Shown here: piece after piece, positions 1 through 10,856 of the stretch | Position numbering within the stretch: position 1 is the stretch's first letter | Layout: the number at the start of each line of letters is the position of its first letter | Source: a virus | Taxonomy: Duplodnaviria > Heunggongvirae > Uroviricota > Caudoviricetes | Reading direction: 5' to 3' (one strand) | DNA: 10,856 nucleotides | IMG/VR virus record: IMGVR_UViG_2695420523_000025 | Location: 1-10,856 of that record | Program-made: the position numbers and the translations under genes | The notes under the pieces: model-generated | Seen by the model: the letters and a program-made list of their open reading frames with translations, nothing else | What the model was told of the DNA's origin: nothing | Databases searched by the model: none

Positions 1-861
1 CCTGTCCTGATTGATGTGAACGGCGTTCCGCTTCGTGAGAGTCTCAGCTACAACGGGGGCGGCGCAGGATTTGGCGGGCAAATGGCGGAGTGGTTGCCAC
101 CGGCGCAGAGTGTCGATGCGGCCCTGCTGCCCGCGTTGCGTCTGGGGAATGCCCGGGCAGATGATCTGGTGCGCAATAACGGAATAGCGGCTAATGCGGT
201 GGCCCTGCATAAGGATCACATTGTCGGGCATATGTTTCTGATCAGCTACCGTCTGAACTGGCGCTGGCTGGGGATGCGGGAGACCGCAGCAAAAAGCTTT
301 GTCGATGAGGTGGAGGCGGCCTGGTCGGAATACGCAGAAGGGATGTCTGGCGAGATCGACGTGGAAGGAAAACGCACATTTACGGAGTTTATCCGTGAAG
401 GTGTTGGCGTTCATGCGTTTAACGGCGAAATCTTTGTGCAGCCGGTCTGGGATACGGAAACCACGCAGTTATTCCGTACGCGTTTTAAAGCCGTGAGTCC
501 GAAACGGGTGGACACGCCAGGACACGGTATGGGGAACCGTTTTCTGCGGGCCGGGGTGGAGGTCGATCGATATGGCCGTGCCGTTGCGTACCATATCTGT
601 GAGGATGATTTTCCGTTCTCCGGGAGTGGACGATGGGAACGGATCCCGCGTGAACTTCCCACCGGGCGTCCGGCCATGCTGCATATTTTCGAGCCGGTGG
701 AGGACGGGCAGACCCGTGGGGCCAATCAGTTTTACAGCGTCATGGAACGGCTGAAGATGCTCGATTCCCTGCAGGCAACACAGCTTCAGTCGGCCATAGT
801 GAAGGCGATTTATGTCTATCATCTCACCGTAGTTGCCCGCATCGTTCGCCAACTCCACTGA
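1..861 (+). CDS. Phage portal protein, lambda gpB family; 5' end lies off-window and the 3' part appears replaced near nt 813, so likely a disrupted gene
   Basis: The frame is open from nt 1 (GTG at 16 is only the first start the ORF finder met). The translation carries blocks I recognise from lambda-family portals: YNGGGAGFGGQ, SVDAALLP, GNARADDLVRNNG, HKDHIVG, FEPVEDGQTRGANQFYSVME, TQLQSAIVKA. Recognisable similarity ends about 15 codons before the stop. Lambda-family portals are about 500-530 aa, whereas this ORF would be about 300 aa. Confidence 0.8.
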   Translation, partial: PVLIDVNGVPLRESLSYNGGGAGFGGQMAEWLPPAQSVDAALLPALRLGNARADDLVRNNGIAANAVALHKDHIVGHMFLISYRLNWRWLGMRETAAKSFVDEVEAAWSEYAEGMSGEIDVEGKRTFTEFIREGVGVHAFNGEIFVQPVWDTETTQLFRTRFKAVSPKRVDTPGHGMGNRFLRAGVEVDRYGRAVAYHICEDDFPFSGSGRWERIPRELPTGRPAMLHIFEPVEDGQTRGANQFYSVMERLKMLDSLQATQLQSAIVKAIYVYHLTVVARIVRQLH

Positions 862-937
862 AACCCTTGCTGCGTCTGGAATGTCGTTTTCCATGCTTTT
901 GATGACCGTTCATCACCCTTCCAGTTTTTCGCGGTTT

Positions 938-991
938 TGTGTATTGCAATGTGTATTGCAAATTGGCGATCGGGATGGGTGTGTATTGCAA
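938..991 (+). repeat. Three direct copies of TGTGTATTGCAA (938-949, 950-961, 980-991) just upstream of int; candidate integrase arm-type or autoregulatory sites within the att arm
   Basis: Three exact 12-bp copies read directly, two in tandem and a third 18 bp later, ending 19 bp before the int start codon. Confidence 0.55.
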
Positions 992-1009
992 ATCTCTTGA
1001 GGGCTTTTA

Positions 1010-2251
1010 ATGGCTATTGAAAACAAACTCAGTGACAAACTGTTAAAGAGTCTTGTCGGAAAACGGCAGGACAAACAAAAAACAATAGCGGATGGGCGCG
1101 GGTTGTCTGTGCGTGTAAGCATGGTTGGGGGGATCAGCTTTGTTTTTTACTATCGTCTTGGTGGCAGGGAATCCCCTCCGGTATGGCTTACACTTGGTCG
1201 CTATCCTGACATGTCTCTTGCAACGGCTAGGCGCATGCGTGATCAGTGCCGTGAATGGCTGGCTGAAAATCTGGACCCCCGCAGGCAAATAAAACTTGCT
1301 GCCGAAAAAACTATGCAACCAGTGACCGTAAGGGATGCGCTGTTTTACTGGTACGACAATCACGCCACAACAGCCAGAAAAGAGCATGAATATTTAATAA
1401 AACGATTTGAAAAGCATATCTTCCCCTATATCGGTGATATGGCTATAGAACAGTGCAAATTACACACATGGCTTACCGTCTTTGACAGGATCAAAAAAAA
1501 TGCGCCTGTTATGTCTGGTGCAATTTTTCTTGATATCAAACAGGCGTTGCGTTTTTGTCGCGTCAGGCAATACATCGCGTGCGATCCCTTTGGAGATATT
1601 AACGTAAGTTATGTCGGGCGCTCATCCGGTATAAGGGATCGCGTTCTTAATATCAATGAAACCGCTGATGTATGGTCTTATGCTTACGGTAATAATTTGC
1701 TAACTCTGTCATCAATATATAACCGAAGAATAATGGTTATCTGCCTGGTGTTTGGTTGCCGACAGCAGGAGGCGAGGCTATCCACCTGGGACGAATGGGA
1801 TTTAAAAAACTGGGTATGGACAGTCCCAAAAGAGCACAGCAAAAACAAGGAGGCTATAGTAAGGCCTGTTCCTGACGGAATAAAACAATGGATCGTTAAT
1901 CTTTACGCAGAAACAAAAAATCGCGGTTATGTTGTCGGTTGTGCTTTGCAAAGGGCGACAATAACAGGGGCTGCAAACAGAATATGCAGGCGTCTTGGTC
2001 ATGATACTAATGGCTTGTGGTGCATACATGATTTCAGGCGCACATTTTCCACTACGCTTAATGATATGGGGGCGGATCCTTATATTGTCGAACTTCTTTT
2101 AGGTCATAAAGTGAAAGGGGTTGCTGGTGTTTACAATAAAAGCAGGCATATAAAGAAAAAACTTGAGGTGCTTAATATGTGGGTTAATTACCTTAATACG
2201 ATAGCAGGATTTAACAACAACGTTATCGAGCTTAATAAAGAGGTGGTGTGA
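1010..2251 (+). CDS. int: Tyrosine site-specific integrase, P4-like family
   Basis: 413-aa ORF with RBS GAGGG about 7 nt upstream. N-terminal arm-binding-type region (GRGLSVRVSMVGGISFVFYYRLGG...LTLGRYPDMSLATAR). C-terminal catalytic region with HDFRRTF, LLGH and the tyrosine in GVYNKS. AT-richer than the portal fragment. Confidence 0.93.
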   Translation: MAIENKLSDKLLKSLVGKRQDKQKTIADGRGLSVRVSMVGGISFVFYYRLGGRESPPVWLTLGRYPDMSLATARRMRDQCREWLAENLDPRRQIKLAAEKTMQPVTVRDALFYWYDNHATTARKEHEYLIKRFEKHIFPYIGDMAIEQCKLHTWLTVFDRIKKNAPVMSGAIFLDIKQALRFCRVRQYIACDPFGDINVSYVGRSSGIRDRVLNINETADVWSYAYGNNLLTLSSIYNRRIMVICLVFGCRQQEARLSTWDEWDLKNWVWTVPKEHSKNKEAIVRPVPDGIKQWIVNLYAETKNRGYVVGCALQRATITGAANRICRRLGHDTNGLWCIHDFRRTFSTTLNDMGADPYIVELLLGHKVKGVAGVYNKSRHIKKKLEVLNMWVNYLNTIAGFNNNVIELNKEVV

Positions 2252-2252
2252 T

Positions 2253-2510
2253 ATGGCAATTTATTCTCTTGTTGATGAAAACGATTTGCGCACAATGAAG
2301 GACATTGATCGGTTCATTCGTGAAAAAGAGTGCATAGCACTTACCACGCTGGCAAACTCAACACGCTGGAAAATGGAGCAGGCAGGTAAATTCCCGCGAC
2401 GTATCAAGATCGGTGAACGTGCTGCAGGGTATCGACTTTCAGAGGTTCAGGCATGGATCCGTGGTGAGTGGCATCCTGGATGGAAACCTGGAAAAACAAA
2501 ACAGCAATAA
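2253..2510 (+). CDS. alpA: AlpA-family (Phage_AlpA) helix-turn-helix regulator / excisionase-like protein
   Basis: 85-aa ORF starting 1 nt after the int stop (TGAtATG) with RBS AAGAGGTGG. The core LTTLANSTRWKMEQAGKFPRRIKIGERAAGYRLSEVQAWI matches the AlpA/Xis pattern. Confidence 0.85.
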   Translation: MAIYSLVDENDLRTMKDIDRFIREKECIALTTLANSTRWKMEQAGKFPRRIKIGERAAGYRLSEVQAWIRGEWHPGWKPGKTKQQ

Positions 2511-2523
2511 CCAGTAAATAATG

Positions 2524-2546
2524 CCCCTCATCACGAGGGGTTTTTT
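2524..2546 (+). terminator. Intrinsic terminator closing the int-alpA unit
   Basis: Stem CCCCTC (2524-2529), loop ATCAC, stem GAGGGG (2535-2540), then TTTTTT (2541-2546). Confidence 0.65.
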
Positions 2547-2566
2547 GTCTATAAGGTAAAAACGCG

Positions 2567-3145
2567 ATGAATAAAAATATTGCCGTGACGGGCAAGGGGT
2601 ACGCTCGTCCAGTGAAAAAATTCTGCGATATTCGTGATCTCGTCGTTCTGCGCTTTGATAGTGTGAACGTTCGTGTGGTGTATCTGAACGGCGATCCGTG
2701 GTTTGTTGCAAAAGATGTTTGTGCTGCGCTGGAACTAACCAATTCGCGTACGGCGTTGCAGATGCTTGATGATGATGAAAAGGGAGTAAATTTAACTTAC
2801 ACCCCAGGAGGAAATCAGAATATGAGAATTATCTCTGAGTCAGGTTTCTACAAACTAATAGCCCGCAGCCGCAAAGCAACGACGCCTGGCACATTTGCTC
2901 ATCGTTTCAGTAACTGGGTATTCAGAAATGTGATACCAGGTATCAGAAAAACGGGGACTTATGGTATCCCGTGGGGTGCATTACAGGATTTTTCCCGCCG
3001 TAAAGAGCAATATCAAATAAGTGCCAGCGAGAAGGGGAGGGAGCTACAGGCATGTAAGCGCAAAAAGCGTGAGCTGGAGGAAGAAGAAAAAACGCTGATA
3101 CGTGAATATCAGCCTGAGTTTTACTTTGGTAACCGCATTCAGTGA
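2567..3145 (+). CDS. Bro-N domain protein (antirepressor-like) with a charged coiled-coil C-terminus
   Basis: 192-aa ORF. The core VVYLNGDPWFVAKDVCAALELTNSRTALQMLDDDEKG is typical of the Bro-N fold. C-terminal KRKKRELEEEEKTLIREYQ is predicted helical. It starts only 20 nt after the terminator T-tract, so its promoter is unclear. Confidence 0.7.
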   Translation: MNKNIAVTGKGYARPVKKFCDIRDLVVLRFDSVNVRVVYLNGDPWFVAKDVCAALELTNSRTALQMLDDDEKGVNLTYTPGGNQNMRIISESGFYKLIARSRKATTPGTFAHRFSNWVFRNVIPGIRKTGTYGIPWGALQDFSRRKEQYQISASEKGRELQACKRKKRELEEEEKTLIREYQPEFYFGNRIQ

Positions 3146-3154
3146 CAAAACAAA

Positions 3155-3175
3155 GGCGACCGCAAAAGGGTCGCC
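3155..3175. terminator. GC hairpin between the convergent Bro-N and minus-strand genes; possible terminator, better placed for minus-strand transcripts
   Basis: GGCGACC (3155-3161), loop of 7 nt, GGTCGCC (3169-3175). No T-run follows on the + strand; the minus strand reads TTTGTTTTG after the stem. Confidence 0.35.
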
Positions 3176-3241
3176 AGTGGGAACAAGGGAAAACAAAAGC
3201 ATCACCAACAATGCCACATTTGCGGCTGGTGGGCAATGTGA

Positions 3242-3421
3242 TCAGTCAGATTTGGTTCGTTCCAAGGTTTGCAACGAGAGCTTTTTCCTGTGCTCTTTAA
3301 GGAATTTCTCAAGAGCAAACGAACAAGGTGCGAATCTTTCTGATTCATGTTCATGCGCTATATTTTTGCGTCGTCTCTTACGAGTTGGTGATGGTGTTTT
3401 GGTTGATTCTGTGTCGCTCAT
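3242..3421 (-). CDS. Small basic hypothetical protein (59 aa), absent from the ORF track
   Basis: Manually translated from the minus strand: MSDTESTKTPSPTRKRRRKNIAHEHESERFAPCSFALEKFLKEHRKKLSLQTLERTKSD, with stop TGA at 3244-3242. AGGA lies 7 nt upstream of the ATG. It sits 57 nt downstream of the RHH-like gene on the same strand. Confidence 0.3.
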   Translation of the reverse strand: MSDTESTKTPSPTRKRRRKNIAHEHESERFAPCSFALEKFLKEHRKKLSLQTLERTKSD

Positions 3422-3478
3422 GGTGCTGTCCTGTAAAGCAATGCGCCTGCGTTCCTCAAACTATGGCGCTGATAGTGG

Positions 3479-3784
3479 CTATTCCTGCTCTTTGACCTTG
3501 CGTCGCTGGAGTTCTTCACGCGCGACGGTGACGAGTTGCCCGATCTCCTCGGCGGCTTTGACTCCGATTTTTTCCACCTGCGCTAGGGCATCGAGCGAAG
3601 AAACCAGGAGGTTTTCTCCGCTTCCTTCTGCCTGGCGGCGGGCGATTTCACCGCGCATGGCGGTTACTATGAATCCGGCGTTGCTTTCACCGTCCAGTTT
3701 TACGGATTCCATGCCTTCAATAACATCATGCGGGATCCGAGCTGTCAGTGATTGTGATTTTGCGTTTTTTGAACCTGTAGCCAT
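3479..3784 (-). CDS. Ribbon-helix-helix-like DNA-binding protein; candidate repressor of the divergent rightward operon
   Basis: The N-terminus KSQSLTARIPHDVIEGMESVKLDGESNAGFIVTAMRGEIARR has the RHH beta-strand plus two helices pattern, followed by a helical tail. I prefer the ATG at 3784 (RBS GAGAGGA 6 nt upstream) over the ORF-track TTG at 3799. It is divergent from a region with palindromic operator-like sites. Confidence 0.6.
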   Translation of the reverse strand: MATGSKNAKSQSLTARIPHDVIEGMESVKLDGESNAGFIVTAMRGEIARRQAEGSGENLLVSSLDALAQVEKIGVKAAEEIGQLVTVAREELQRRKVKEQE

Positions 3785-3805
3785 CTGTAATCCTCTCAAT
3801 GAAAG

Positions 3806-3900
3806 TGTAAGACAATATACACATAAAAAGTCTTACATAAAAGCATTGACATGTAAGCCACCTATAAATAAAGTTACTTACACCTTGTTAATACAAGGTG
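3806..3900. promoter_or_regulatory. Divergent promoter/operator region with TGTAAG/CTTACA half-sites, a sigma70-like rightward promoter and a 7-bp-stem palindrome
   Basis: Half-sites TGTAAG at 3806-3811 and 3852-3857, inverted partners CTTACA at 3832-3837 and 3877-3882. TTGACA at 3846-3851 with TAAAGT 17 bp downstream at 3869-3874 (rightward). On the minus strand TATATT is a candidate -10 for the RHH gene. Palindrome CACCTTG-N6-CAAGGTG at 3881-3900. Confidence 0.45.
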
Positions 3901-3980
3901 CAGAAACGACGAAACCCCGCACTGTAGGAGCAGTAACGGGGCTTCTAACCACCAACGATAGCAAGATTATCGAGGCAGCT

Positions 3981-4184
3981 ATGAGAAATTATACCATACA
4001 CCCGCAAGGGCGGGACTCGTACAACCTGAATAAATACATCTGGCGTTTTATCGCCCTGAGCACCGCACAACCGCGCGTGATTCACATCGTGGCCACCAGC
4101 GAACAGGAAGCACGCCAGCAATCCCCGGCTGGCTGCGTGATGGTATTCGCCGCCCGTATTCGTCAGGGGGTGTGCCATGCCTGA
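3981..4184 (+). CDS. Small hypothetical protein (67 aa), first gene of the rightward operon
   Basis: ATG at 3981 with GAGG 5 nt upstream, in frame with the stop at 4182-4184, which overlaps the start of the next gene by 8 nt. It is the only plausible part of the long low-complexity ORF 3102..4184. Confidence 0.45.
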   Translation: MRNYTIHPQGRDSYNLNKYIWRFIALSTAQPRVIHIVATSEQEARQQSPAGCVMVFAARIRQGVCHA

Positions 4185-4497
4185 TATGTCAAATTACCAG
4201 TACCTGATTAATCCGCATTTTAACTGTGAGCATGATATTGCTAAAAAGGTTTATTCCGCTGCTGATGGGGCTACTGACAATATATCAATGGCTGTTGCGT
4301 CAATTGGTAGCCTGATGTGGCATGCGTCAGAAAATGAGGACTATGACGAAAAGGCCATGCGCATTGATATGGGTAATATCGGTTTGTTACTGGCAATGCT
4401 TGGGCAGTTTGATATTTCGTTACGGTGCACCATTGAAAATGCCACAGATGCATTAAATGCCATAAAGAAAGCGAATACTGATTCAAATCGGGGATAA
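4177..4497 (+). CDS. Hypothetical protein (106 aa)
   Basis: ATG at 4177 with RBS AGGGGG 6 nt upstream. Overlaps the preceding stop. No recognisable motif. Confidence 0.6.
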   Translation: MPDMSNYQYLINPHFNCEHDIAKKVYSAADGATDNISMAVASIGSLMWHASENEDYDEKAMRIDMGNIGLLLAMLGQFDISLRCTIENATDALNAIKKANTDSNRG

Positions 4498-4503
4498 ATA
4501 ATC

Positions 4504-4803
4504 ATGAGAACATATTTATCTGGCTTGACTGCCAGCGGTTATGCACACCCCAAAATTATCCCCGGCGCTATTTATCTGGATAAGAACGGTAACAGAGTAA
4601 CGGTAAAAGAGCTGATGTTTGACCGTGTGTATTTTATTCGTGATGGCTATTCATTTCATAGTTCGCTGAACGTGGAGATCTTTATTAGCAGATTCAGGCG
4701 GGAAATCCCGCTTTCCAGAAAAAACCATGTGTCACGTGTGAATGTGGATAAAAAACTACAGGAACTGAAAAACATGATTGCCGCGTGGAGAGAGCAGAAA
4801 TGA
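4504..4803 (+). CDS. Hypothetical protein (99 aa)
   Basis: ATG at 4504, 7 nt after the previous stop. Its stop TGA (4801-4803) overlaps the primase ATG (4800-4802). No recognisable motif. Confidence 0.6.
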   Translation: MRTYLSGLTASGYAHPKIIPGAIYLDKNGNRVTVKELMFDRVYFIRDGYSFHSSLNVEIFISRFRREIPLSRKNHVSRVNVDKKLQELKNMIAAWREQK

Positions 4804-6617
4804 AAAAAGCGCCAAATTTAAAACACCAGCCGCGTGACAAAATGACGGAAGTCATCATTTTTGCGGGTAGTGATGCGTGGGCACATGCGAAGCAGTGGCA
4901 GGAACAGGACGGGCGACTGGCTGGCGATAACGTGCCTCCTGTCTGGCTTGGAGAGCAACAACTTGCCGAACTGGACAACCTGCAAATCGTACCGGACGGA
5001 CGCTATCGCGTGCGTCTCTATCAGGCGGGGTTATTGCGTCCGGGGCTTGTTAATACCATCGGGCAGAAACTGGCAGCGGCAGGTGTCAGGGATGCTGATT
5101 ATTACTCTGAAGGAATGCACAGCCAGAAACGGGAGAACTGGCGCGAATATCTGGAACGTGAACGGGCAGAGCTGGCGGAAAAGAAAAAGGTAGTTGAACT
5201 GCCTGTAAAGAAAAAAGAGCGGGTAAAAGACGATAACGCTTCATCACTGGCGCTTAACCAGATGGGAGCAAGTCAACGCGGCGAAGTTCTCCTGGCACAT
5301 TATGGCGGTGAACTGGCGATTCATGCTGACTCTGACACTGTTCACCATTACAACGGCGTTGTATGGGAGCCAGTACAGGATAAAGAATTACAGCGAGCTA
5401 TGGCACAGATTTTCATTGATGCGGAGATCAGCTATTCGCAGAACGCCATTAAATCGGCGGTCGATACCATGAAGTTAAGTTTGCCTGTTATGGGGAATAC
5501 AGCCCGTAACCTGATTGGATTCAGTAACGGGGTATTTGATACCAGAACAGGTAATTTTCGGGAGCATAACAAAAACGACTGGTTGTTAATTGCCAGTGAA
5601 TTACCTTTCAGCCCACCAGCAGAGGGGGAAACGCTGGCAACACATGCGCCGAATTTCTGGAAGTGGTTACGCCGTTCGGTGGCTGAGAATGACCGCAAGG
5701 CGGATCGCGTACTGGCTGCATTATTCATGGTGCTGGCGAACCGGTACGACTGGCAGTTATTCATTGAGGTAACAGGTCCAGGGGGAAGTGGTAAAAGCGT
5801 GATGGCGGAGATTTGCACCATGCTGGCGGGTAAGGCCAACACAGTATCGGCAAGCATGAAGGCGCTGGAAGATGCAAGGGAACGCGCGTTAGTGGTTGGC
5901 TTTTCGCTGATTATCATGCCGGATATGACCCGCTACGCTGGTGATGGGGCAGGAATTAAGGCCATTACAGGCGGTGACAAGGTGGCAATTGACCCGAAAC
6001 ACAAAGCCCCCTACTCAACGCGTATTCCGGCAGTAGTGCTGGCGGTTAACAATAACGCCATGTCATTCAGTGACCGCAGCGGGGGGATCTCACGTCGTCG
6101 GGTGATATTCAATTTTTCGGAAGTTGTACCGGAGAACGAACGCGATCCAATGCTGGCGGAAAAAATAGAAGGTGAGCTGGCGGTAGTGATTCGCCATCTG
6201 CTTACACGGTTTGCTGACCAGGACGAAGCCAGACGCCTGTTATATGAGCAGCAGAAATCTGAAGAAGCACTGGCGATAAAGCGAGAGGGGGATTCGCTGG
6301 TGGACTTCTGCGGCTATCTCATGGCGTCGGTAATGTGTGATGGCCTGTTAGTGGGTAATGCTGAAATTGTGCCATTCAGCCCACGCAGGTATCTCTATCA
6401 TGCCTATCTGGCTTATATGAGGGCACATGGGTTTGGTAAACCTGTAACACTGACGCGCTTCGGTAAAGATATGCCGGGGGCAATGGCGGAATATGGCAGG
6501 GAGTATATGAAACGGAAAACGAAGCACGGTTTGCGTTCAAACGTGACACTGACGGAGGAATCAGAAGACTGGATGCCATCATGTGTATCGGTCACTAATG
6601 ACGATAGCAAAAATTAA
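4800..6617 (+). CDS. Replication primase/helicase, P4 alpha-like (N-terminal primase-type region plus SF3/D5-type NTPase)
   Basis: Long ORF with Walker A GPGGSGKS and a downstream hydrophobic stretch ending in D (SLIIMPDM, Walker B-like). Start taken at ATG 4800 (RBS GGAGAGAG), but GTG 4785 and ATG 4842 are alternatives. An iteron array follows immediately. Confidence 0.9.
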   Translation: MKKAPNLKHQPRDKMTEVIIFAGSDAWAHAKQWQEQDGRLAGDNVPPVWLGEQQLAELDNLQIVPDGRYRVRLYQAGLLRPGLVNTIGQKLAAAGVRDADYYSEGMHSQKRENWREYLERERAELAEKKKVVELPVKKKERVKDDNASSLALNQMGASQRGEVLLAHYGGELAIHADSDTVHHYNGVVWEPVQDKELQRAMAQIFIDAEISYSQNAIKSAVDTMKLSLPVMGNTARNLIGFSNGVFDTRTGNFREHNKNDWLLIASELPFSPPAEGETLATHAPNFWKWLRRSVAENDRKADRVLAALFMVLANRYDWQLFIEVTGPGGSGKSVMAEICTMLAGKANTVSASMKALEDARERALVVGFSLIIMPDMTRYAGDGAGIKAITGGDKVAIDPKHKAPYSTRIPAVVLAVNNNAMSFSDRSGGISRRRVIFNFSEVVPENERDPMLAEKIEGELAVVIRHLLTRFADQDEARRLLYEQQKSEEALAIKREGDSLVDFCGYLMASVMCDGLLVGNAEIVPFSPRRYLYHAYLAYMRAHGFGKPVTLTRFGKDMPGAMAEYGREYMKRKTKHGLRSNVTLTEESEDWMPSCVSVTNDDSKN

Positions 6618-6630
6618 ACTTATGGAATAA

Positions 6631-6853
6631 CTGTTCACCACTGTTCACCCTGTCATAAATATCTTTTGTATCAGTATGTTATAGGGTGAACAGTTATTTA
6701 TGAACTGTTCACCAAACTATTCACTGTTCACCTTTTTGATTGTTTATTGAGCTTCAAGGGTGAACAGTGGTGAACAGTTGGTGAATAGTTTTTGTGAAAC
6801 TGTTCACCCCTTAACATTATGAATAAAAAGTTAAAATATCAAAAGGTGAACAG
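6631..6853. repeat. Iteron array, putative origin of replication of the element
   Basis: Exact CTGTTCACC at 6631, 6641, 6705, 6724 and 6800. Exact inverse GGTGAACAG at 6685, 6759, 6769 and 6845. Degenerate GGTGAATAG at 6780. Tandem copies have 10-11 bp periodicity. Two inverted pairs have 11-bp AT-rich spacers (6685-6713 and 6780-6808). The surroundings are AT-rich and directly downstream of the primase gene. Confidence 0.75.
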
Positions 6854-6904
6854 GTGAAGGGTTAAAACGCAAAAATTTTAATTTACTGCTGTGAGATAAA
6901 GCCT

Positions 6905-7150
6905 ATGACAGCGAAGCACACAAAAAAATCACAATCGCACGCCCTTGATTTGACGGAACACTGGTTAAGGGTGTCGATAAAAATCATCGACCGCAACGCC
7001 GGGGAAGGATATGCGAAAGCACATCCCGAACTGATTAGCTCATTCATGACAACGGCAGCTGCAAACTTTGCCACGCTGACAGAACGGGAGATTGCCGAAG
7101 CGGAACAGGTGACAACCATCAACGTTAAAACCGGAGAGCAGACAGCATGA
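6905..7150 (+). CDS. Hypothetical protein (81 aa), translationally coupled to the SSB-like gene
   Basis: ATG at 6905. Its stop TGA (7148-7150) overlaps the downstream ATG (7147-7149). No recognisable motif. Confidence 0.55.
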   Translation: MTAKHTKKSQSHALDLTEHWLRVSIKIIDRNAGEGYAKAHPELISSFMTTAAANFATLTEREIAEAEQVTTINVKTGEQTA

Positions 7151-7569
7151 CAGCACAGATAGCGGCTTACGGGCGGCTGGTGGCTGACCCGCAGTTAAAG
7201 ACCACCAGCAAGGGTACACAAATGACGATGGCGAGTATGGCGGTCCCACTTCCGTGCAGCCAGGCAGATGACGGAACGGCGACGATGTGGTTATCCGTCC
7301 TGGCGTTTGGCAGACAGGCCGAAGCACTGGCAAAGCACCGCAAGGGTGAACTCCTGAGCGTGGCGGGTAACATGCAGGTGAGCCAGTGGACCGGACAGAA
7401 CGGGGAGACGCGGCAGGGCTGGCAGGTTATCGCAGACAGCGTAATCAGTGCGAGAACGGCGCGACCGGGCGGCAAAAAAGGCCAACAGGGGCAGGCTACT
7501 GATGCACTGAGCAGAGCAAAACAACAGGCGGGAAATGATGATCCGTACGGGGATAACATACCGTTTTAA
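7147..7569 (+). CDS. ssb: Single-stranded DNA-binding protein (SSB family) with acidic C-terminal tip ending IPF
   Basis: 140-aa OB-fold-like N-terminus (IAAYGRLVADPQLK...WLSVLAFGRQAEALAKHRKGELLSVAGNMQVSQWTGQNGETRQGWQVIADSV) that parallels E. coli SSB block by block. Gly/Gln-rich linker. C-terminus DDPYGDNIPF compared with SSB DFDDDIPF. Confidence 0.8.
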   Translation: MTAQIAAYGRLVADPQLKTTSKGTQMTMASMAVPLPCSQADDGTATMWLSVLAFGRQAEALAKHRKGELLSVAGNMQVSQWTGQNGETRQGWQVIADSVISARTARPGGKKGQQGQATDALSRAKQQAGNDDPYGDNIPF

Positions 7570-7585
7570 GCAACGAGTAACAGAA

Positions 7586-7607
7586 GCCGGAGCAATCCGG
7601 CTTTTTT
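7586..7607 (+). terminator. Intrinsic terminator after the SSB-like gene
   Basis: GCCGGA (7586-7591), loop GCAA, TCCGGC (7596-7601), then TTTTTT (7602-7607). Confidence 0.7.
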
Positions 7608-7609
7608 AT

Positions 7610-7681
7610 GGGTCCTCCCGGTGTAGTGACCTGCCACGGGGCGGGAGCGTCGCGGAAAAAGGCTGGTTTTTGCATTTTCAT
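7610..7681 (+). repeat. Copy 1 of a 72-bp GC-rich intergenic module; candidate shared regulatory element
   Basis: GGGTCCTCCCGGTG...CTGCCACGGGGCGGGAGCG.CGCGGAAAAAGGCT.GTTTTTGCATTTTCAT. 66 of 72 positions match the copy at 10146-10217 by manual alignment. It begins 3 nt after the terminator T-run. Confidence 0.6.
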
Positions 7682-7868
7682 GGCGGCGGCAGCATGTGTA
7701 GTAATTTATTGATAATTAAAAGTTATTTCTGTTTTCACCTGTACAATATTTTTTTCTCCCTGTCATTAGACCAGTTTGCAATTAATTGAAATATATAAAT
7801 AAATCTGTTTTTCACCTGCCAGGTGGAGTTGCCTGTGTCAAAACGTGTTCAGATGGCGGGATATTTAT

Positions 7869-7892
7869 GCCGGATTTTATCCGGCTTTTTTG
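7869..7892 (+). terminator. Intrinsic terminator inside the intergenic region upstream of the capsid operon
   Basis: GCCGGA (7869-7874), loop TTTTA, TCCGGC (7880-7885), then TTTTTT (7886-7891). The stem is the same as in the 7586 terminator. Confidence 0.6.
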
Positions 7893-7993
7893 TGTCTGAA
7901 TCTCATTAATCTATTTTTATGATAGAAATATGTTTATCTACCACTTTTATCGATCAATAATGTGCACAGTTTAGTCAGTAAGAGGAAGTTACT

Positions 7994-8203
7994 GTGAGTT
8001 GTATTAATGACCTGAACACGGGCGATATCAGGGGTGGTTCCGTTCATCTGGATGCGCAGACCGTTATGCGCCTTAAGCAGTACAGGATCGACCATATAAA
8101 TCATCATCCTGACAAACCATTACCAGGTGTGGCGCAGATTGTCAGGCATGCCGTAAACGCCTGGCTTAATCAGAGTGGTTTTGCATCGGAGAGTGAGCAA
8201 TGA
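7994..8203 (+). CDS. Small hypothetical protein (69 aa), translationally coupled to the protease-capsid gene
   Basis: GTG start with strong RBS AAGAGGAAG 7 nt upstream. Its stop TGA (8201-8203) overlaps the ATG at 8200-8202. A weak RHH-like pattern (MRLKQYRIDH...VAQIVRHAVNAWL) is not conclusive. Confidence 0.5.
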   Translation: MSCINDLNTGDIRGGSVHLDAQTVMRLKQYRIDHINHHPDKPLPGVAQIVRHAVNAWLNQSGFASESEQ

Positions 8204-10113
8204 ATCACTGGTACACCATTAAGGCGGCGGATGTTCGCGGAGCGGCGGATATATCTATCTATGAGGAGATTGGCGGCTTCGGTGTTACTGCAAAGCAGTT
8301 CGCGGAAGACCTGAAAGCCCTTGGCGATGTTTCACATATCAATCTGAGGATCCATTCACCAGGTGGTGATGTGTTTGAAGGCATCGCCATCTATAACCTG
8401 CTACGGAATCATCCGGCAGACATTACGGTTTATATCGATGGTGTTGCGGCTTCAATGGCTTCGGTTGTCGCAATGGCTGGCGATCGTGTTGTTATGCCGG
8501 AGAACGCCATGATGATGATCCATAAACCGTGGGGTATCTCTGGCGGAAATGCTGGCGATATGCGTGATTATGCTGATTTGCTGGATAAGGTGGAAACCGT
8601 GTTAATCCCTGCTTATGCCAGAAAAACGGGCAAATCAGCACAGGAAATTACCGCCATGCTGGAGGATGAAACCTGGATGGATGGGAAAGAATGCCTTAAG
8701 CACGGTTTTGCTGATGAATTGTTGCCATCCGTCAGAGCAATGGCGCGAATTGAATCGAAACGCACAGGAGATTTTTTACATATGCCGGAAACCATTAAAG
8801 GAATGATTACACCGCCACAGGGAGCGGCAAATATTGCTGGTAATGAACAGAAGCGCATCAATGGAATAAGTGAAGTGTTTAGCTTGTTCGGCAGTCGTTA
8901 CGACGGGATCAAAATGGCGTGTCTGGAAGATGCATCATGTACACCGGAAATGGCCCGTGAAAAGCTGTTGAACGAGCTGGGGCGCGAGTCCACGCCATCC
9001 AATAAAAATACCCCGCCTCATATCTATGCCGGAAACGGAAACATAACAGGTGATGCAATTCGTCAGGGGCTTTATTCCCGTCTTGGGTATGAACGCCCTG
9101 AACGAGGCAACCCTTACGCGATGATGAGCCTTTTTGAAATGGCCCAGGCATCACTGGTTGATCGTGGTATCACTGTGAGCGGTTTTATTAATCGCTCGCA
9201 GGTTGTTAATGCGGCTTTTACACACAGCAGCAGCGATTTTTCTCATATTCTGGCTGGTGGCGCTGAAAAATCAGTACTGAAAGGCTGGCAGGACAGCGGC
9301 GAAACGTTCCAGAAATGGACGCGTACCGGTTCGCTTTCAAACTTTCATGAAGCAAAGCGCGTTGGTCTGAATGGTTTTTCAAAGCTGGATAAAGTACCGG
9401 AAGGCGCGGAATATAAATACATCACCACTAGCGATAAAGGTGTACCTATTGCGCTGGCCACGTACGGGAATATTTTTTCCGTTACCCGTCAGGCCATTAT
9501 CAACGATGACCTGACCCAGTTAACTACAATCCCCATGGCGATGGGACGCGCAGCTGCCAGAACAGTTGGCAATCTGGTTTATCTCCTGTTAACCAGCAAC
9601 GGCAAGTTTACGGATGGTAAAGCGTTATTCCATGCCGATCATAAAAATCTTATTGCGAAGGATATGGACATGGAGGGGCTTAACGAAGCCCGTAAGCTGA
9701 TGCGCCTCCAGGAAGACGCTAACGGCGATTCGCTGAATATTACCCCCGCATTTGTCCTGGTCCCCGCCGCGCTGGAGTCTGCCGCACATCGCGCCATTCT
9801 GTCATCGTCATCACTCTTTCCGGTTGATGGCGTGGGCACTATCAATCAGAACCCCGGCATCATTAACGTGGTGAAAGATATGGCGGAGGTAATCGTTGAG
9901 CCACGTCTTGATAAAGCCAATAACAAGGAGTGGTATGTGGCAGCGGCGAAGGGTATGGACACGATAGAGGTCGCTTATCTTGATGGTATTGATACGCCAT
10001 ATCTTGAGGAGCAGGAGGGCTTTACTGTTGATGGCGTCGCCTGGAAGGTGCGCATAGATGCAGGTGTCGCGGCCCTCGACTATCGCGGATTACTGAAATC
10101 GAGTGGAGCATGA
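8200..10113 (+). CDS. Fusion protein: N-terminal ClpP-like (S14-type) prohead serine protease joined to a C-terminal putative major capsid domain
   Basis: N-terminal 200 aa carry ClpP signatures HSPGGDVFEGIAIYNLL, catalytic-serine context GVAASMASVVAMAGD and histidine context MMMIHKPWG. The remaining roughly 430 aa have the size and position expected of a scaffold plus capsid region. The capsid assignment is from context and general resemblance, not a verified alignment. Confidence 0.8.
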   Translation: MNHWYTIKAADVRGAADISIYEEIGGFGVTAKQFAEDLKALGDVSHINLRIHSPGGDVFEGIAIYNLLRNHPADITVYIDGVAASMASVVAMAGDRVVMPENAMMMIHKPWGISGGNAGDMRDYADLLDKVETVLIPAYARKTGKSAQEITAMLEDETWMDGKECLKHGFADELLPSVRAMARIESKRTGDFLHMPETIKGMITPPQGAANIAGNEQKRINGISEVFSLFGSRYDGIKMACLEDASCTPEMAREKLLNELGRESTPSNKNTPPHIYAGNGNITGDAIRQGLYSRLGYERPERGNPYAMMSLFEMAQASLVDRGITVSGFINRSQVVNAAFTHSSSDFSHILAGGAEKSVLKGWQDSGETFQKWTRTGSLSNFHEAKRVGLNGFSKLDKVPEGAEYKYITTSDKGVPIALATYGNIFSVTRQAIINDDLTQLTTIPMAMGRAAARTVGNLVYLLLTSNGKFTDGKALFHADHKNLIAKDMDMEGLNEARKLMRLQEDANGDSLNITPAFVLVPAALESAAHRAILSSSSLFPVDGVGTINQNPGIINVVKDMAEVIVEPRLDKANNKEWYVAAAKGMDTIEVAYLDGIDTPYLEEQEGFTVDGVAWKVRIDAGVAALDYRGLLKSSGA

Positions 10114-10120
10114 CAACAAG

Positions 10121-10143
10121 GGCGGCGATAGCCGCCTTTTTTT
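10121..10143 (+). terminator. Intrinsic terminator after the protease-capsid gene
   Basis: GGCGGC (10121-10126), loop GATA, GCCGCC (10131-10136), then TTTTTTT (10137-10143). Confidence 0.7.
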
Positions 10144-10145
10144 AC

Positions 10146-10217
10146 GGGTCCTCCCGGTGGGGTGGTCTGCCACGGGGCGGGAGCGGCGCGGAAAAAGGCT
10201 AGTTTTTGCATTTTCAT
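10146..10217 (+). repeat. Copy 2 of the 72-bp GC-rich intergenic module
   Basis: Matches 7610-7681 at 66 of 72 positions. It has the same placement, 2 nt after a terminator T-run and upstream of the next operon. Confidence 0.6.
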
Positions 10218-10370
10218 TCGTCATCATCATCTTTCTATTGTATTGAATTTTAAGTATTTTTATTTTTGGCATGTTAATTTTGCTTGTTTTATGCTCAACA
10301 TATAGCGCATTTTTTGACCTCTTCTGAAAGTTGTTCGCAAGATGCATGTTTAAAACATTCTGGAGCGGGT

Positions 10371-10856
10371 ATGGATCGAGAACTGAAAAATCTGATGCTG
10401 AACATTAATCAACTGGCGGCGATAGCGGGAATATGTCGTCAGACTGCGGCGGCAAGGCTGAAAAACATCCAGCCAGCCGGAGGGCATGACAAGCTAAAAC
10501 TCTATCGGGTGACTGACATTCTGACCTGTTTTCTTGATCTTCCCGTTCCGGCATCACTGGAAGAAATGGAGCCACATGACCGTAAGGCCTGGTATCAGTC
10601 CGAACGTGAGCGCCTCAGGTTCGAACAGGAAACGGCGCAACTCATACCCGCCGATGATGTGCGAAAAGAGATGGCTATATGGGGGGAAATCGTAAGCGAG
10701 GAACTGGCAAAACTCCCCAATATTCTGGCACGTGATGCCGGGCTTAAACCGATGGCAGTAAACAGAGTGCAGTCAATTATTGACGATTTGCGTAATCAGA
10801 TTATCAGCCGGATGGTAAAAAATGACGTAGTGAATGAGGTCGCAAAACAGGCATGA
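10371..10856 (+). CDS. Nu1-like small terminase subunit or packaging-specificity DNA-binding protein
   Basis: Start taken at ATG 10371 (RBS GGAG 5 nt upstream) rather than the ORF-track 10284. N-terminal HTH-like LNINQLAAIAGICRQTAAARLKN, then a LY...ERERLRFEQE region and a C-terminal helical region, with an overall layout like lambda Nu1. The stop is at the last 3 nt of the window. Confidence 0.55.
   Translation: MDRELKNLMLNINQLAAIAGICRQTAAARLKNIQPAGGHDKLKLYRVTDILTCFLDLPVPASLEEMEPHDRKAWYQSERERLRFEQETAQLIPADDVRKEMAIWGEIVSEELAKLPNILARDAGLKPMAVNRVQSIIDDLRNQIISRMVKNDVVNEVAKQA

What the first reader, a model, noticed from the sequence alone, without database searches (positions are those of the whole stretch)
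10371..10856. Nu1-like small terminase on the element, matching a lambdoid helper
An HTH-led small protein with Nu1-like organisation follows the capsid gene. With a lambda-type portal in the flanking prophage, this suggests the element supplies its own packaging specificity and borrows the helper large terminase.
Basis: partly seen in the sequence, partly recalled or inferred. Interest (0 to 1): 0.45.

Follow-up and report, generated by a model that had tools for sequence, protein, structure and literature searches.

The report
Satellite-borne small terminase with cos site
The gene encodes a phage-type small terminase carried by a phage satellite next to its own DNA-packaging (cos) site, a known satellite strategy, but it matches a different lambdoid phage lineage from the prophage the satellite sits in.

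Summary
Window 10371-10856 (+) is a real 161-aa gene with an N-terminal winged helix-turn-helix. It follows the ClpP-capsid fusion gene of a PICI-type satellite inserted in a lambda-family portal gene.

It is not a Nu1-family (PF07471) protein. It belongs to DUF1441 (PF07278, phrog_141), a distant Nu1 relative that fills the TerS slot just upstream of gpA-type TerL in mEp460-like lambdoid phages.

A lambda-like cosQ-cosN lies 196 bp upstream (cosN 10175-10186), and a second copy lies at 7602-7681. None of about 24 related satellites carries its own TerL.

The gene has two modules. The DNA-binding half and the adjacent cosB occur as alleles shared with phages. The C-terminal half was found only in satellites. 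Satellites mostly carry the allele that is rare in phages, and it differs from the helper's allele in 8 of 8 helper-embedded composites.

This supports "own TerS and cos, borrowed TerL". However, the flanking prophage is Nu1/lambda-cos type: its portal is 26% identical and its TerL 24% identical to the matching lineage. The claimed match to the flanking helper therefore fails.

The window may also be a recombinant or an assembly chimera. This is a new member of a known kind, of moderate interest.

The parts
10371..10856 (+). terS homologue, 161 aa, DUF1441 / phrog_141 family (satellite-type)
   Evidence: PF07278 E=2.4e-36 and phrog_141 E=9.6e-57. It is 67% identical to the gene directly upstream of TerL in prophage L002. 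The identical protein was found in 10 of 10 satellite contexts.
10371..10625 (+). N-terminal module (aa 1 to about 85): MerR-like winged HTH plus a conserved central helix; allele 'A'
   Evidence: The AF2 N-domain model has pLDDT 84.5. Foldseek hits include Nu1-family DNA-binding-domain chains 7lwr_A, 7lw0_A, 7lxs_A and 6hn7_B. The DNA is 96-100% identical over nt 1-240 to phage L024 terS, falling to 87% by nt 241-270. Differences among satellite copies are almost all synonymous.
10638..10853 (+). C-terminal helical module (aa about 90-161), satellite-specific variant that lacks the acidic tail of phage TerS
   Evidence: DNA identity to phage alleles is 47-77% but 100% to satellite L029, which has the other N allele. 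No phage record aligns past aa 144-156, and the best identity is 70.7%.
10146..10152 (+). cosQ-like heptamer GGGTCCT of cos2
   Evidence: The heptamer is the same as in the lambda-type cos sites of L003-L013 and sits 22 nt before cosN, against 23 nt there.
10175..10186 (+). cosN-like 12-mer GGGCGGGAGCGG of cos2, flanked by ACG and CGCGG as in lambda-type cos
   Evidence: The site is identical or near-identical to the one upstream of terS in prophages L002 and L024-L028. It lies 196 bp before the terS ATG; by my own knowledge, the corresponding lambda cosN-to-Nu1 distance is about 190 bp.
10187..10370 (+). cosB-like spacer, allele A, with three TGCAT(G/T)TT-type repeats at 10207, 10268 and 10343
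   Evidence: Identity is 98-100% within an allele and 77-79% between alleles. The allele co-segregates perfectly with the TerS N-module allele in phages and satellites. The repeats are; the pattern was derived after seeing the sites, so its enrichment is not an independent test.
10121..10143 (+). terminator-like hairpin GGCGGCGATAGCCGCC plus T-run, between the capsid gene and cos2
   Evidence: Sequence; hairpin reported.
7602..7681 (+). cos1: a second direct copy of cosQ-cosN (cosN GGGCGGGAGCGT at 7639-7650) after ssb, with an unrelated downstream sequence
   Evidence: It is 91% identical over 80 nt to 10138-10217. Alignment shows divergence from about +45. Two cos sites are also reported for EcCICFT073 (PMC6739421).
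8200..10113 (+). ClpP-like prohead protease / major capsid fusion gene of the satellite's late zone
   Evidence: PF00574 + PF25209, and phrog_133 E=3.7e-285.
16..861 (+). 5' part of the interrupted lambda-family portal gene of the flanking prophage
   Evidence: PF05136 E=2.4e-63, truncated. Over window 1-1010, which contains this fragment, the DNA is 98.2-98.4% identical to the corresponding stretch of the Nu1-type prophages L003 and L006. The fragment is 26% aa identical to the portal of DUF1441-type phages.
1010..2251 (+). satellite integrase of the portal-targeting clade
   Evidence: PF13356 + PF00589. The identical protein lies in portal-embedded satellites in 10 of 10 places.

Best explanation
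The gene encodes a satellite-borne small terminase subunit (TerS) of the DUF1441 family. This is the family that mEp460-like lambdoid phages use as TerS together with a 700-aa gpA-type TerL. The gene sits at the right end of a PICI-type satellite (int-alpA-bro-primase-ssb-capsid-terS) that has no TerL.

Proposed mechanism:
1. After helper induction, the satellite replicates as concatemers.
2. The satellite TerS binds the cosB-like region (10187-10370) through its N-terminal MerR-like winged HTH.
3. Its C-terminal helical module recruits the helper's gpA-type TerL.
4. TerL nicks cosN (10175-10186) and packages satellite DNA, with cosQ serving termination.

The cosB/DNA-binding pair that satellites carry (allele A) is usually different from that of the resident or common helper (allele B). 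The satellite therefore gets its own packaging address while using the helper's motor. The satellite-only C-terminal module plausibly keeps satellite TerS from mixing with helper TerS oligomers, or alters competition for TerL.

The competent helper should be an mEp460-like (DUF1441/gpA-700/ClpP-capsid) phage, not the Nu1/lambda-cos prophage whose portal gene the element interrupts.

Shown here: family, gene position, cos anatomy, modular mosaic and allele distribution. Inferred: DNA binding, TerL recruitment, and preferential packaging.
For: - Family: PF07278 and phrog_141 'terminase small subunit'.
- TerS slot in phages: homologues are the gene that overlaps the start of gpA-type TerL in prophages. 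They are annotated TerS at the left genome end of mEp460, Ayreon, phi458, mEp043 and mEp213.
- Relation to Nu1: reciprocal profile hits between the DUF1441 and Nu1 PHROGs at E=1e-6 to 1e-8. The N-domain model resembles Nu1-family DNA-binding-domain chains (TM 0.64-0.71).
- cos site: lambda-like cosQ-cosN lies 196 bp upstream and is near-identical to the cos of the phage lineage.
- cosB linkage: cosB alleles co-segregate perfectly with N-module alleles.
- No own TerL: none of about 24 related satellite copies has one.
- Allele mismatch within composites: in 8 of 8 helper-embedded composites the satellite has allele A and the helper has allele B or a third allele.
- Allele frequencies in complete E. 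coli genomes: about 184 of 188 satellite loci carry allele A, against about 81 A and about 1361 B among phage loci.
- Selection: the N module shows almost only synonymous change among satellite copies.
- Literature: PICI models list a small terminase as a core component that redirects packaging (PMC10085698).
Against: - No experiment addresses this protein or its family in satellites; the only DUF1441 literature hits were phage genome notes.
- The C-terminal module differs at about 40-50% of positions from phage TerS and lacks the acidic tail, so TerL binding is unproven.
- Among satellite copies, the C module shows mostly nonsynonymous change, though at few sites.
- Allele A also occurs in bona fide phages at 98-100% identity, so the specificity is not unique to satellites.
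- The cosB-to-N-module linkage could reflect physical adjacency alone.
- Genome counts are not phylogenetically independent.
- One embedded satellite (L040) has lost the gene.
- In this window the flanking prophage is of a lineage whose TerL is 24% identical. A suitable helper is therefore not visible here.
Confidence: 0.6

Rival explanations
1. Rpp- or Ppi-like interference factor. The protein does not act as a stand-alone TerS. It heteromerises with the helper's TerS through the nearly invariant central helix (aa about 68-92). This poisons helper packaging and/or retargets the mixed complex to satellite cos, with the helper TerS supplying the TerL contact.
For: - The central segment RKAWYQSERERL(R/K)FEQETAQLIPA is almost identical in satellite and phage proteins.
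- The satellite C-terminal module has diverged and lost the acidic tail, as Rpp proteins lack a TerL-binding tail (PMC9026076).
- Rpp also has a Nu1-like wHTH and works on E. coli PICIs that carry two cos sites (PMC6739421).
- The N-domain model also hits 6hn7.
Against: - No sequence similarity to RppC in the PDB was found by phmmer or profile search.
- The protein is full length relative to phage TerS (161 against 163-164 aa), not 30-40 residues shorter.
- Family-invariant C-terminal residues (L112, P116, L119, R121, D122, V133, Q134, D138) are retained.
Confidence: 0.2
2. Passenger gene. The cos-terS segment was captured from a helper together with the capsid gene and has no role in satellite transfer. 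The satellite is packaged through its cos sites by the helper's unmodified terminase.
For: - Late-gene capture by these satellites is documented (10.1101/2022.07.18.500453).
- EcCICFT073 capsid and decoration genes did not account for its interference with phage lambda, and PICI capsid genes are reported as not required for transfer (PMC6092414; 10.1101/2022.07.18.500453).
- L040 lost terS.
- The C module accumulates nonsynonymous changes.
Against: - The ORF is intact in all other copies seen, and a satellite-type locus covering at least 80% of the query is present in 188 complete genomes.
- The N module shows a strong excess of synonymous change.
- The C-terminal module is a distinct satellite-only allele, 100% conserved across both N alleles. 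That is not expected for a recently captured, drifting gene.
- Allele frequencies are opposite in satellites and phages.
Confidence: 0.1
3. Transcriptional regulator. A MerR/AlpA-like winged-HTH protein controls satellite or helper late genes and does not act in packaging.
For: The N-domain fold hits MerR-like regulators (RacA, BldC, MtaN) as well as, or better than, TerS domains, and no hit is significant by E-value.
Against: Homologues occupy the TerS slot overlapping TerL and are the only TerS candidate in mEp460-like phages. The gene is preceded by cos at lambda-like spacing. Profile hits to Nu1 are collinear over the whole length.
Confidence: 0.05

Closest known systems
TerS of mEp460-like lambdoid phages (mEp460, Ayreon, phi458; also prophage loci L002 and L024-L028), DUF1441/PF07278
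   Same: Same Pfam and PHROG family and same length class. The cosQ-cosN is near-identical and is followed by cosB at 186-196 bp from the ATG. The N-terminal module is 96-100% identical in DNA to the L024-type phage allele over nt 1-240.
   Different: The C-terminal half (aa about 90-161) is a distinct allele with 47-77% DNA identity and no acidic tail. The gene is followed by a 93-aa ORF and the island end instead of overlapping a TerL gene.
Phage lambda gpNu1 (PF07471; PDB 1J9I, 7LW0)
   Same: It has an N-terminal MerR-like winged HTH, a helical middle part and a C-terminal helical part. The gene is the first one after cosN at about 190 bp. Profile hits are reciprocal but weak (E=1e-6 to 1e-8) and the hhalign alignment is collinear.
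   Different: No PF07471 hit at E<=0.1 and no PDB sequence hit were found, and the hhalign probability is only 6.8%. The cohesive end differs (GGGCGGGAGCGG against GGGCGGCGACCT). The partner TerL lineage is only 24% identical.
Nu1-type TerS homologues of portal-embedded HE-PICIs (L004-L013)
   Same: They occupy the same position in the satellite (after the capsid genes, preceded by cos, followed by an 89%-identical 93-aa ORF). Those elements have an integrase identical to the window's and the same left end.
   Different: The divergence pattern is opposite. There the N-terminal DNA-binding part and cosB differ from the helper's, while the C-terminal part keeps the Nu1 profile (37% identity; Pfam match only to profile positions 80-162). 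Here the N part equals a phage allele and the C part is satellite-specific.
RppA/RppC of EcCICFT073-type PICIs (PMC6739421)
   Same: It is a small wHTH protein in the late zone of an E. coli cos-type PICI that carries two cos sites. It is expected to redirect the helper terminase to the satellite's cosB.
   Different: No detectable sequence similarity to RppC was found. The protein is a full-length TerS homologue rather than a shortened one. It targets a different phage lineage, since Rpp acts on lambda/phi80 Nu1.
SaPI-encoded TerS (own knowledge; summarised in PMC6092414)
   Same: The logic is the same: the satellite encodes a TerS homologue that recognises the satellite's own packaging site and uses the helper's TerL.
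   Different: SaPI TerS works in headful (pac) packaging in Gram-positive hosts and belongs to an unrelated TerS family. Here packaging is cos-type.

Membership tests
DUF1441 (Pfam PF07278) / phrog_141 'terminase small subunit' | Profile HMM match above the curated threshold over the full domain | tested here: met
   125.3 bits against a cut-off of 35.1, residues 10-148 on profile positions 1-145 of 147. phrog_141 E=9.6e-57.
Phage_Nu1 (Pfam PF07471, lambda gpNu1 family) | Profile HMM match to PF07471 | tested here: not met
   No PF07471 hit at E<=0.1. Only a weak hit to the Nu1 PHROG phrog_57 (E=6.4e-6). hhalign of DUF1441 against Nu1 alignments gave probability 6.8% and E=0.005.
Phage_Nu1 (lambda gpNu1 family) | N-terminal MerR-like winged helix-turn-helix DNA-binding domain | tested here: met
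   The AF2 N-domain model (pLDDT 84.5) shows beta-alpha-alpha-beta-beta-alpha. Foldseek hits to Nu1-family chains 7lwr_A, 7lw0_A and 7lxs_A have TM 0.64-0.71 and probability 0.87-0.97. E-values of 0.1-0.5 are not significant, and other MerR-like proteins score equally.
Small terminase of cos phages (functional class) | Gene lies next to the packaging site: cosQ-cosN, then cosB, then terS | tested here: met
   cosQ at 10146-10152, cosN at 10175-10186, ATG at 10371. The arrangement is the same in prophages L002 and L024-L028.
Small terminase of cos phages (functional class) | Gene immediately upstream of, or overlapping, the large terminase gene | tested here: not met
   The window ends at the stop codon. 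In related satellites the next gene is a 93-aa ORF and then the island end. The feature is met by phage homologues. Its absence is expected for a satellite copy.
Small terminase of cos phages (functional class) | Binds cosB DNA and the large terminase subunit | not testable with these tools
   This needs binding or packaging assays. The only indirect evidence is the co-segregation of cosB and N-module alleles.
Rpp (redirecting phage packaging) proteins | Sequence similarity to RppA/B/C (RppC is in the PDB, 6HN7) | tested here: not met
   phmmer and profile searches of the PDB gave no Rpp hit at E<=10.
Rpp (redirecting phage packaging) proteins | [quoted passage not shown] | tested here: not met
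   The protein is 161 aa against 163-164 aa for phage TerS of the same family. The extreme C-terminal tail does differ.
PICI (SatelliteFinder definition, PMC10085698) | Integrase, AlpA-type regulator, primase-replicase, capsid-related gene and small terminase in that order, with no other structural or lysis genes | tested here: met
   int 1010-2251, AlpA 2253-2510, D5_N/DUF5906 primase 4785-6617, ClpP-capsid 8200-10113, terS 10371-10856. The definition was read.
Helper-embedded PICI (HE-PICI/HES; PMC10111431) | [quoted passage not shown] | tested here: met
   The truncated portal gene (16-861) and the integrase are both on the + strand. The identical integrase is portal-embedded in 10 of 10 places. 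attR and the 3' portal half lie outside the window.
Capsid-forming PICI (cf-PICI) | Own portal, TerL and head-tail connector genes | tested here: not met
   None is present in the window or in the related satellites.

The most novel reading that the evidence does not exclude
The element is a natural cross-lineage hybrid that uses two different phages. It is embedded in, and presumably induced or cis-controlled by, a Nu1/lambda-cos prophage. It is packaged by a different, mEp460-like helper, through a chimeric TerS. In that TerS the DNA-binding half (with cosB) is swapped as a cassette between phages and satellites, while a satellite-only C-terminal half handles engagement of the helper motor. 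Such cassette exchange of packaging 'addresses' would be an arms-race mechanism not described for cos satellites.
Probability: 0.15. Interest if true: 0.6.

Novelty: new member of a known kind. Interest (0 to 1): 0.35.

Why it matters
Satellites that carry their own TerS are well studied for pac-type SaPIs. For cos-type Gram-negative PICIs, the only mechanism worked out is Rpp.

This locus belongs to a common E. coli satellite group: about 188 of 5,426 complete genomes carry it. The group instead carries a full-length TerS homologue next to its own cos site, aimed at a very common prophage lineage present in about 1,360 genomes.

The clean two-module structure and the opposite allele frequencies in satellites and phages give a directly testable hypothesis for how packaging specificity and motor recruitment are partitioned within a Nu1-like TerS. 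The locus also gives DUF1441, still a 'domain of unknown function' in Pfam and RefSeq, a concrete functional reading. For annotation, 'DUF1441 family protein' in these islands could be read as TerS-like.

Tried and rejected
- PDB sequence searches with the protein and with a 31-sequence profile found nothing relevant.
- hhalign of my shallow DUF1441 and Nu1 alignments was inconclusive (probability 6.8%).
- NCBIfam gave no family for the protein, and Rfam and tRNA scans of the window were empty.
- I looked for the source genome. No complete E. coli genome covers 80% or more of the window. Look-ups by the integrase and by the TerS protein returned only the two parental configurations.
- I tested whether the satellite C module resembles Nu1 more than the phage C module does, which would suggest adaptation to the flanking prophage's gpA. 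It does not: 27.2 against 32.8 bits to phrog_57.
- I checked whether the 127-aa HTH protein of Nu1-type satellites is Rpp. It is AlpA-like.
- The repeat TGCAT(G/T)TT in cosB is enriched (5 matches against 0.69 expected). The pattern was derived from the sites themselves, so I do not count it as a test.
- I rejected cf-PICI, P4-like and complete-prophage readings, because portal, TerL and tail genes are absent.

Full report
**1. Observation.**
The window's last gene runs from ATG 10371 to TGA 10854-10856 and encodes 161 aa, with a GGAG ribosome-binding site 5 nt upstream. It follows the ClpP-protease/major-capsid fusion gene (8200-10113) after a 257-bp spacer. The protein matches PF07278 (DUF1441) at E=2.4e-36 and phrog_141 'terminase small subunit' at E=9.6e-57. 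AlphaFold models give an N-terminal beta-alpha-alpha-beta-beta-alpha winged HTH (residues 9-55) followed by long helices. The left end of the window holds a truncated lambda-family portal gene (16-861, PF05136, profile positions 2-242 of 354).

**2. The element.**
Gene order is as follows:
- integrase (1010-2251)
- AlpA (2253-2510)
- Bro-N (2567-3145)
- DUF4222 (4504-4803)
- D5_N/DUF5906 primase (4785-6617)
- an iteron-rich stretch (6616-6853)
- SSB (7147-7569)
- a 69-aa ORF (7994-8203)
- ClpP-capsid fusion (8200-10113)
- the target gene (10371-10856)

This is the canonical PICI layout of integrase, regulator, primase-replicase, capsid gene and small terminase (PMC10085698). Because it sits inside, and co-oriented with, a prophage portal gene, it is also a helper-embedded PICI in the sense of Tommasini, Mageeney and Williams (PMC10111431).

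**3. What family the protein is.**
In prophages, DUF1441 proteins are the gene that overlaps the start of a 700-aa gpA-type TerL. A 70-aa ORF, a 502-aa portal and a 675-aa ClpP-capsid fusion follow (L002 and L024-L028). In isolated lambdoid phages (mEp460, Ayreon, phi458, mEp043, mEp213, several Stx2 phages) the homologue is annotated as terminase small subunit, at the left genome end in mEp460, Ayreon, mEp043 and mEp213. DUF1441 is thus the TerS of that lineage.

It is not Nu1 in the family sense. There is no PF07471 hit at E<=0.1, no PDB sequence hit to 1J9I or to RppC, and hhalign of my shallow alignments gave only 6.8% probability. A distant relationship is nevertheless supported:
- The Nu1 and DUF1441 PHROGs hit each other's members at E=1e-6 to 1e-8, collinearly.
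- Many Nu1 proteins carry precomputed hits to both Pfam families.
- The N-domain model's Foldseek hits include four Nu1-family DNA-binding-domain chains (7lwr_A, 7lw0_A, 7lxs_A, 6hn7_B) with TM 0.52-0.71.

The fold-search E-values are not significant, and MerR-like regulators score equally well.

**4. cos sites.**
At 10146-10186 lies GGGTCCT-(22 nt)-ACG|GGGCGGGAGCGG|CGCGG. It is organised like the lambda-type cos sites of L003-L013, which read GGGTCCT-(23 nt)-|GGGCGGCGACCT|CGCGG. The cohesive-end identity of the lambda sequence is from my own knowledge. cosN lies 196 bp before the terS ATG. The same cos precedes terS in prophages of the DUF1441 lineage. A terminator-like hairpin (10121-10143) separates it from the capsid gene.

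A second direct copy (7602-7681, 91% identical) lies after ssb, and its downstream sequence is unrelated. Two cos sites are also known for EcCICFT073, where only one is needed for transfer (PMC6739421).

**5. No TerL of its own.**
The window ends at the stop codon, so I examined relatives. The identical 161-aa protein was found in 10 of 10 places in satellites, and the variant P0006 in 5 of 5. In all of these it is followed by a 93-aa ORF (phrog_1561) and then chromosomal genes. The same holds for L001. In gpA-embedded satellites what follows (after the 93-aa ORF in most of them) is only the 3' remainder of the helper's interrupted gpA.

**6. Two-module mosaic.**
Alignment of four gene versions shows a sharp crossover at about nt 240-270, in the highly conserved central helix.
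- The 5' part (aa 1 to about 85, the wHTH) exists as alleles A and B, which are 50-87% identical in DNA.
- The 3' part exists as a 'phage' allele (acidic tail ...DDEEELQQEE) and a 'satellite' allele (...VKNDVVNEVAKQA), which are 47-77% identical.
- All four combinations occur, and each module is 96-100% identical within its class.
- The window is A-sat, L024-L028 are A-phage, the L002 helper is B-phage, and L029-L033 are B-sat.

The cosB region (cosN+24 to the ATG) is 98-100% identical within an allele and 77-79% between alleles. It co-segregates perfectly with the N module, including a 10-bp spacing difference of 196 against 186 bp. No record in the phage collection has the satellite C module: the best identity is 70.7%, and alignments stop at aa 144-156. 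Family-invariant C-terminal residues are retained in the satellite version.

**7. Does the satellite have its own specificity?**
Allele A is not unique to satellites, but the distribution is strongly asymmetric. Among complete E. coli genomes, the phage-type locus occurs in about 1,362 genomes. About 1,361 of these are at least 95% identical to the B-phage query, and only about 81 to the A-phage query. The satellite-type locus occurs in 188 genomes, about 184 with allele A and about 1 with allele B.

In 8 of 8 composites where a satellite with terS is embedded in the gpA gene of a DUF1441-type prophage, the satellite has allele A. The surrounding helper has allele B in six cases and a third allele in two. 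These counts are not phylogenetically independent. Still, they fit a satellite that keeps a cosB/DNA-binding pair different from its helper's. Among satellite copies the N module changes almost only synonymously (for example 12 synonymous against 1 nonsynonymous in L038). The few C-module changes are mostly nonsynonymous.

**8. Contrast with Nu1-type satellites.**
Elements with the very same integrase as the window are all portal-embedded in prophages that use Nu1 (PF07471), a 641-642-aa gpA and gpW. They carry a cap_E + decoration + AlpA-like + Nu1-like (180 aa) + 93-aa late zone. Their Nu1-like protein is 37% identical to the helper's Nu1. Only its C-terminal part matches the Pfam profile (positions 80-162), and cosB diverges just after cosN. 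That is the opposite divergence pattern to the DUF1441 satellites.

**9. Mismatch with the flanking prophage.**
Window 1-1010, which holds the portal fragment, is 98.2-98.4% identical to the corresponding stretch of L003 and L006, both Nu1-type prophages with the GGGCGGCGACCT cohesive end. The portal fragment is only 26% aa identical to the portal of DUF1441-type phages. The TerL proteins of the two lineages are 24% identical, and their N-terminal regions do not align. The satellite C module is not closer to Nu1 than the phage C module is: 27.2 against 32.8 bits to phrog_57. So the packaging determinants in the window (TerS family, cosN, capsid gene) match a different lambdoid lineage from the prophage the element sits in. 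The helper's terminase genes are outside the window, so this is inferred by linkage.

**10. Origin of the window.**
Positions 1-3854 match portal-embedded satellites (97.7%). Positions 3196-10856 match a cspD-clpS chromosomal PICI (L016) at 99.987%. The two matches overlap by about 660 bp. No complete E. coli genome covers 80% or more of the window. The window is therefore either a rare natural recombinant or an assembly chimera joined across the shared stretch. I cannot distinguish these.

**11. Mechanism and rivals.**
- Best explanation (0.6): a satellite TerS binds the adjacent cosB and recruits a helper gpA-type TerL to cut cosN and package satellite concatemers. The satellite-only C module perhaps prevents mixing with helper TerS or changes competition for TerL.
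- Rpp/Ppi-like heteromerisation with helper TerS through the conserved central helix (0.2).
- A passenger gene with no role in transfer (0.1).
- A transcriptional regulator (0.05).

None of the DNA-binding, TerL-binding or packaging steps is shown. They rest on homology with lambda Nu1 and on the published logic of SaPI TerS and Rpp (PMC6092414, PMC6739421, PMC9026076).

**12. Verdict.**
It is a TerS homologue with its own cos site, it has no TerL, and it is likely to use a borrowed one. The labels need correcting: it is DUF1441 rather than Nu1, and it is matched to mEp460-like phages rather than to the flanking lambda-type prophage. TerS-bearing PICIs and helper-embedded PICIs are both already described, so this is a new member of a known kind. 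The modular TerS and the allele asymmetry are modestly new, testable details.

Noticed in passing
window 7602-7681 and 10138-10217: There are two direct copies of cosQ-cosN, 2,536 bp apart, bracketing the 69-aa ORF and the ClpP-capsid gene. Their cosN 12-mers differ at the last base (GGGCGGGAGCGT against GGGCGGGAGCGG). Only the second copy is followed by the cosB shared with phages. Which one is used, and whether termination at the 'wrong' copy yields genomes lacking the capsid segment, is open.
   Followed up: partly
window 1-3854 versus 3196-10856: The window is a mosaic. The left part is 97.7% identical to portal-embedded Nu1-type satellites. The right part is 99.987% identical to a cspD-clpS chromosomal PICI. 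The two overlap by about 660 bp. No complete E. coli genome has this combination, so it may be a natural recombinant or an assembly chimera.
   Followed up: partly
window 6616-6853: A dense set of direct and inverted GGTGAACAG / CTGTTCACC repeats lies just downstream of the primase gene, where PICI replication origins are reported.
   Followed up: no
window 938-993: Three copies of TGTGTATTGCAA(A/T)(T/G) lie between the truncated portal gene and the integrase start. They are possibly integrase arm-type or attL-associated sites, in line with the doubled motif reported for this integrase clade.
   Followed up: no
window 7994-8203 (+) versus 7934-8107 (-): RefSeq annotates a 57-aa ORF on the minus strand here in related genomes. 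The plus-strand 69-aa ORF, whose stop overlaps the capsid gene start, matches phrog_4934 at E=2e-32. The plus-strand gene is probably the real one. Its function is unknown.
   Followed up: partly
L001:23260-23541 and L005:19599-19880 (just beyond the window's right end in relatives): A 93-aa ORF (phrog_1561, unknown function) follows the TerS homologue in both DUF1441-type and Nu1-type satellites. It is 89% identical between them, so it belongs to the conserved satellite backbone rather than to the captured late module.
   Followed up: partly
L002:19488-20188, L014:9118-9690, L019/L020:9118-9690, L032:3128-3700: Some relatives carry a lambda tail I-like tail-assembly gene, in L002 together with a tail-protein gene fragment, inserted between the capsid gene and cos2. 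This shows that the capsid-cos junction is a hotspot for captured helper late DNA.
   Followed up: no
L034:11720-12211 and L038:11720-12211: A third N-module allele of phage TerS (about 75% identical to both A and B) exists in some helpers. The cosB/DNA-binding polymorphism therefore has more than two alleles.
   Followed up: no
window 3102-4184 (+): A 360-aa mechanical ORF spans a region where relatives annotate a YlcI/YnfO gene on the minus strand (3479-3799, phrog_6522) and a small Icd-like gene. The long ORF is probably spurious.
   Followed up: no
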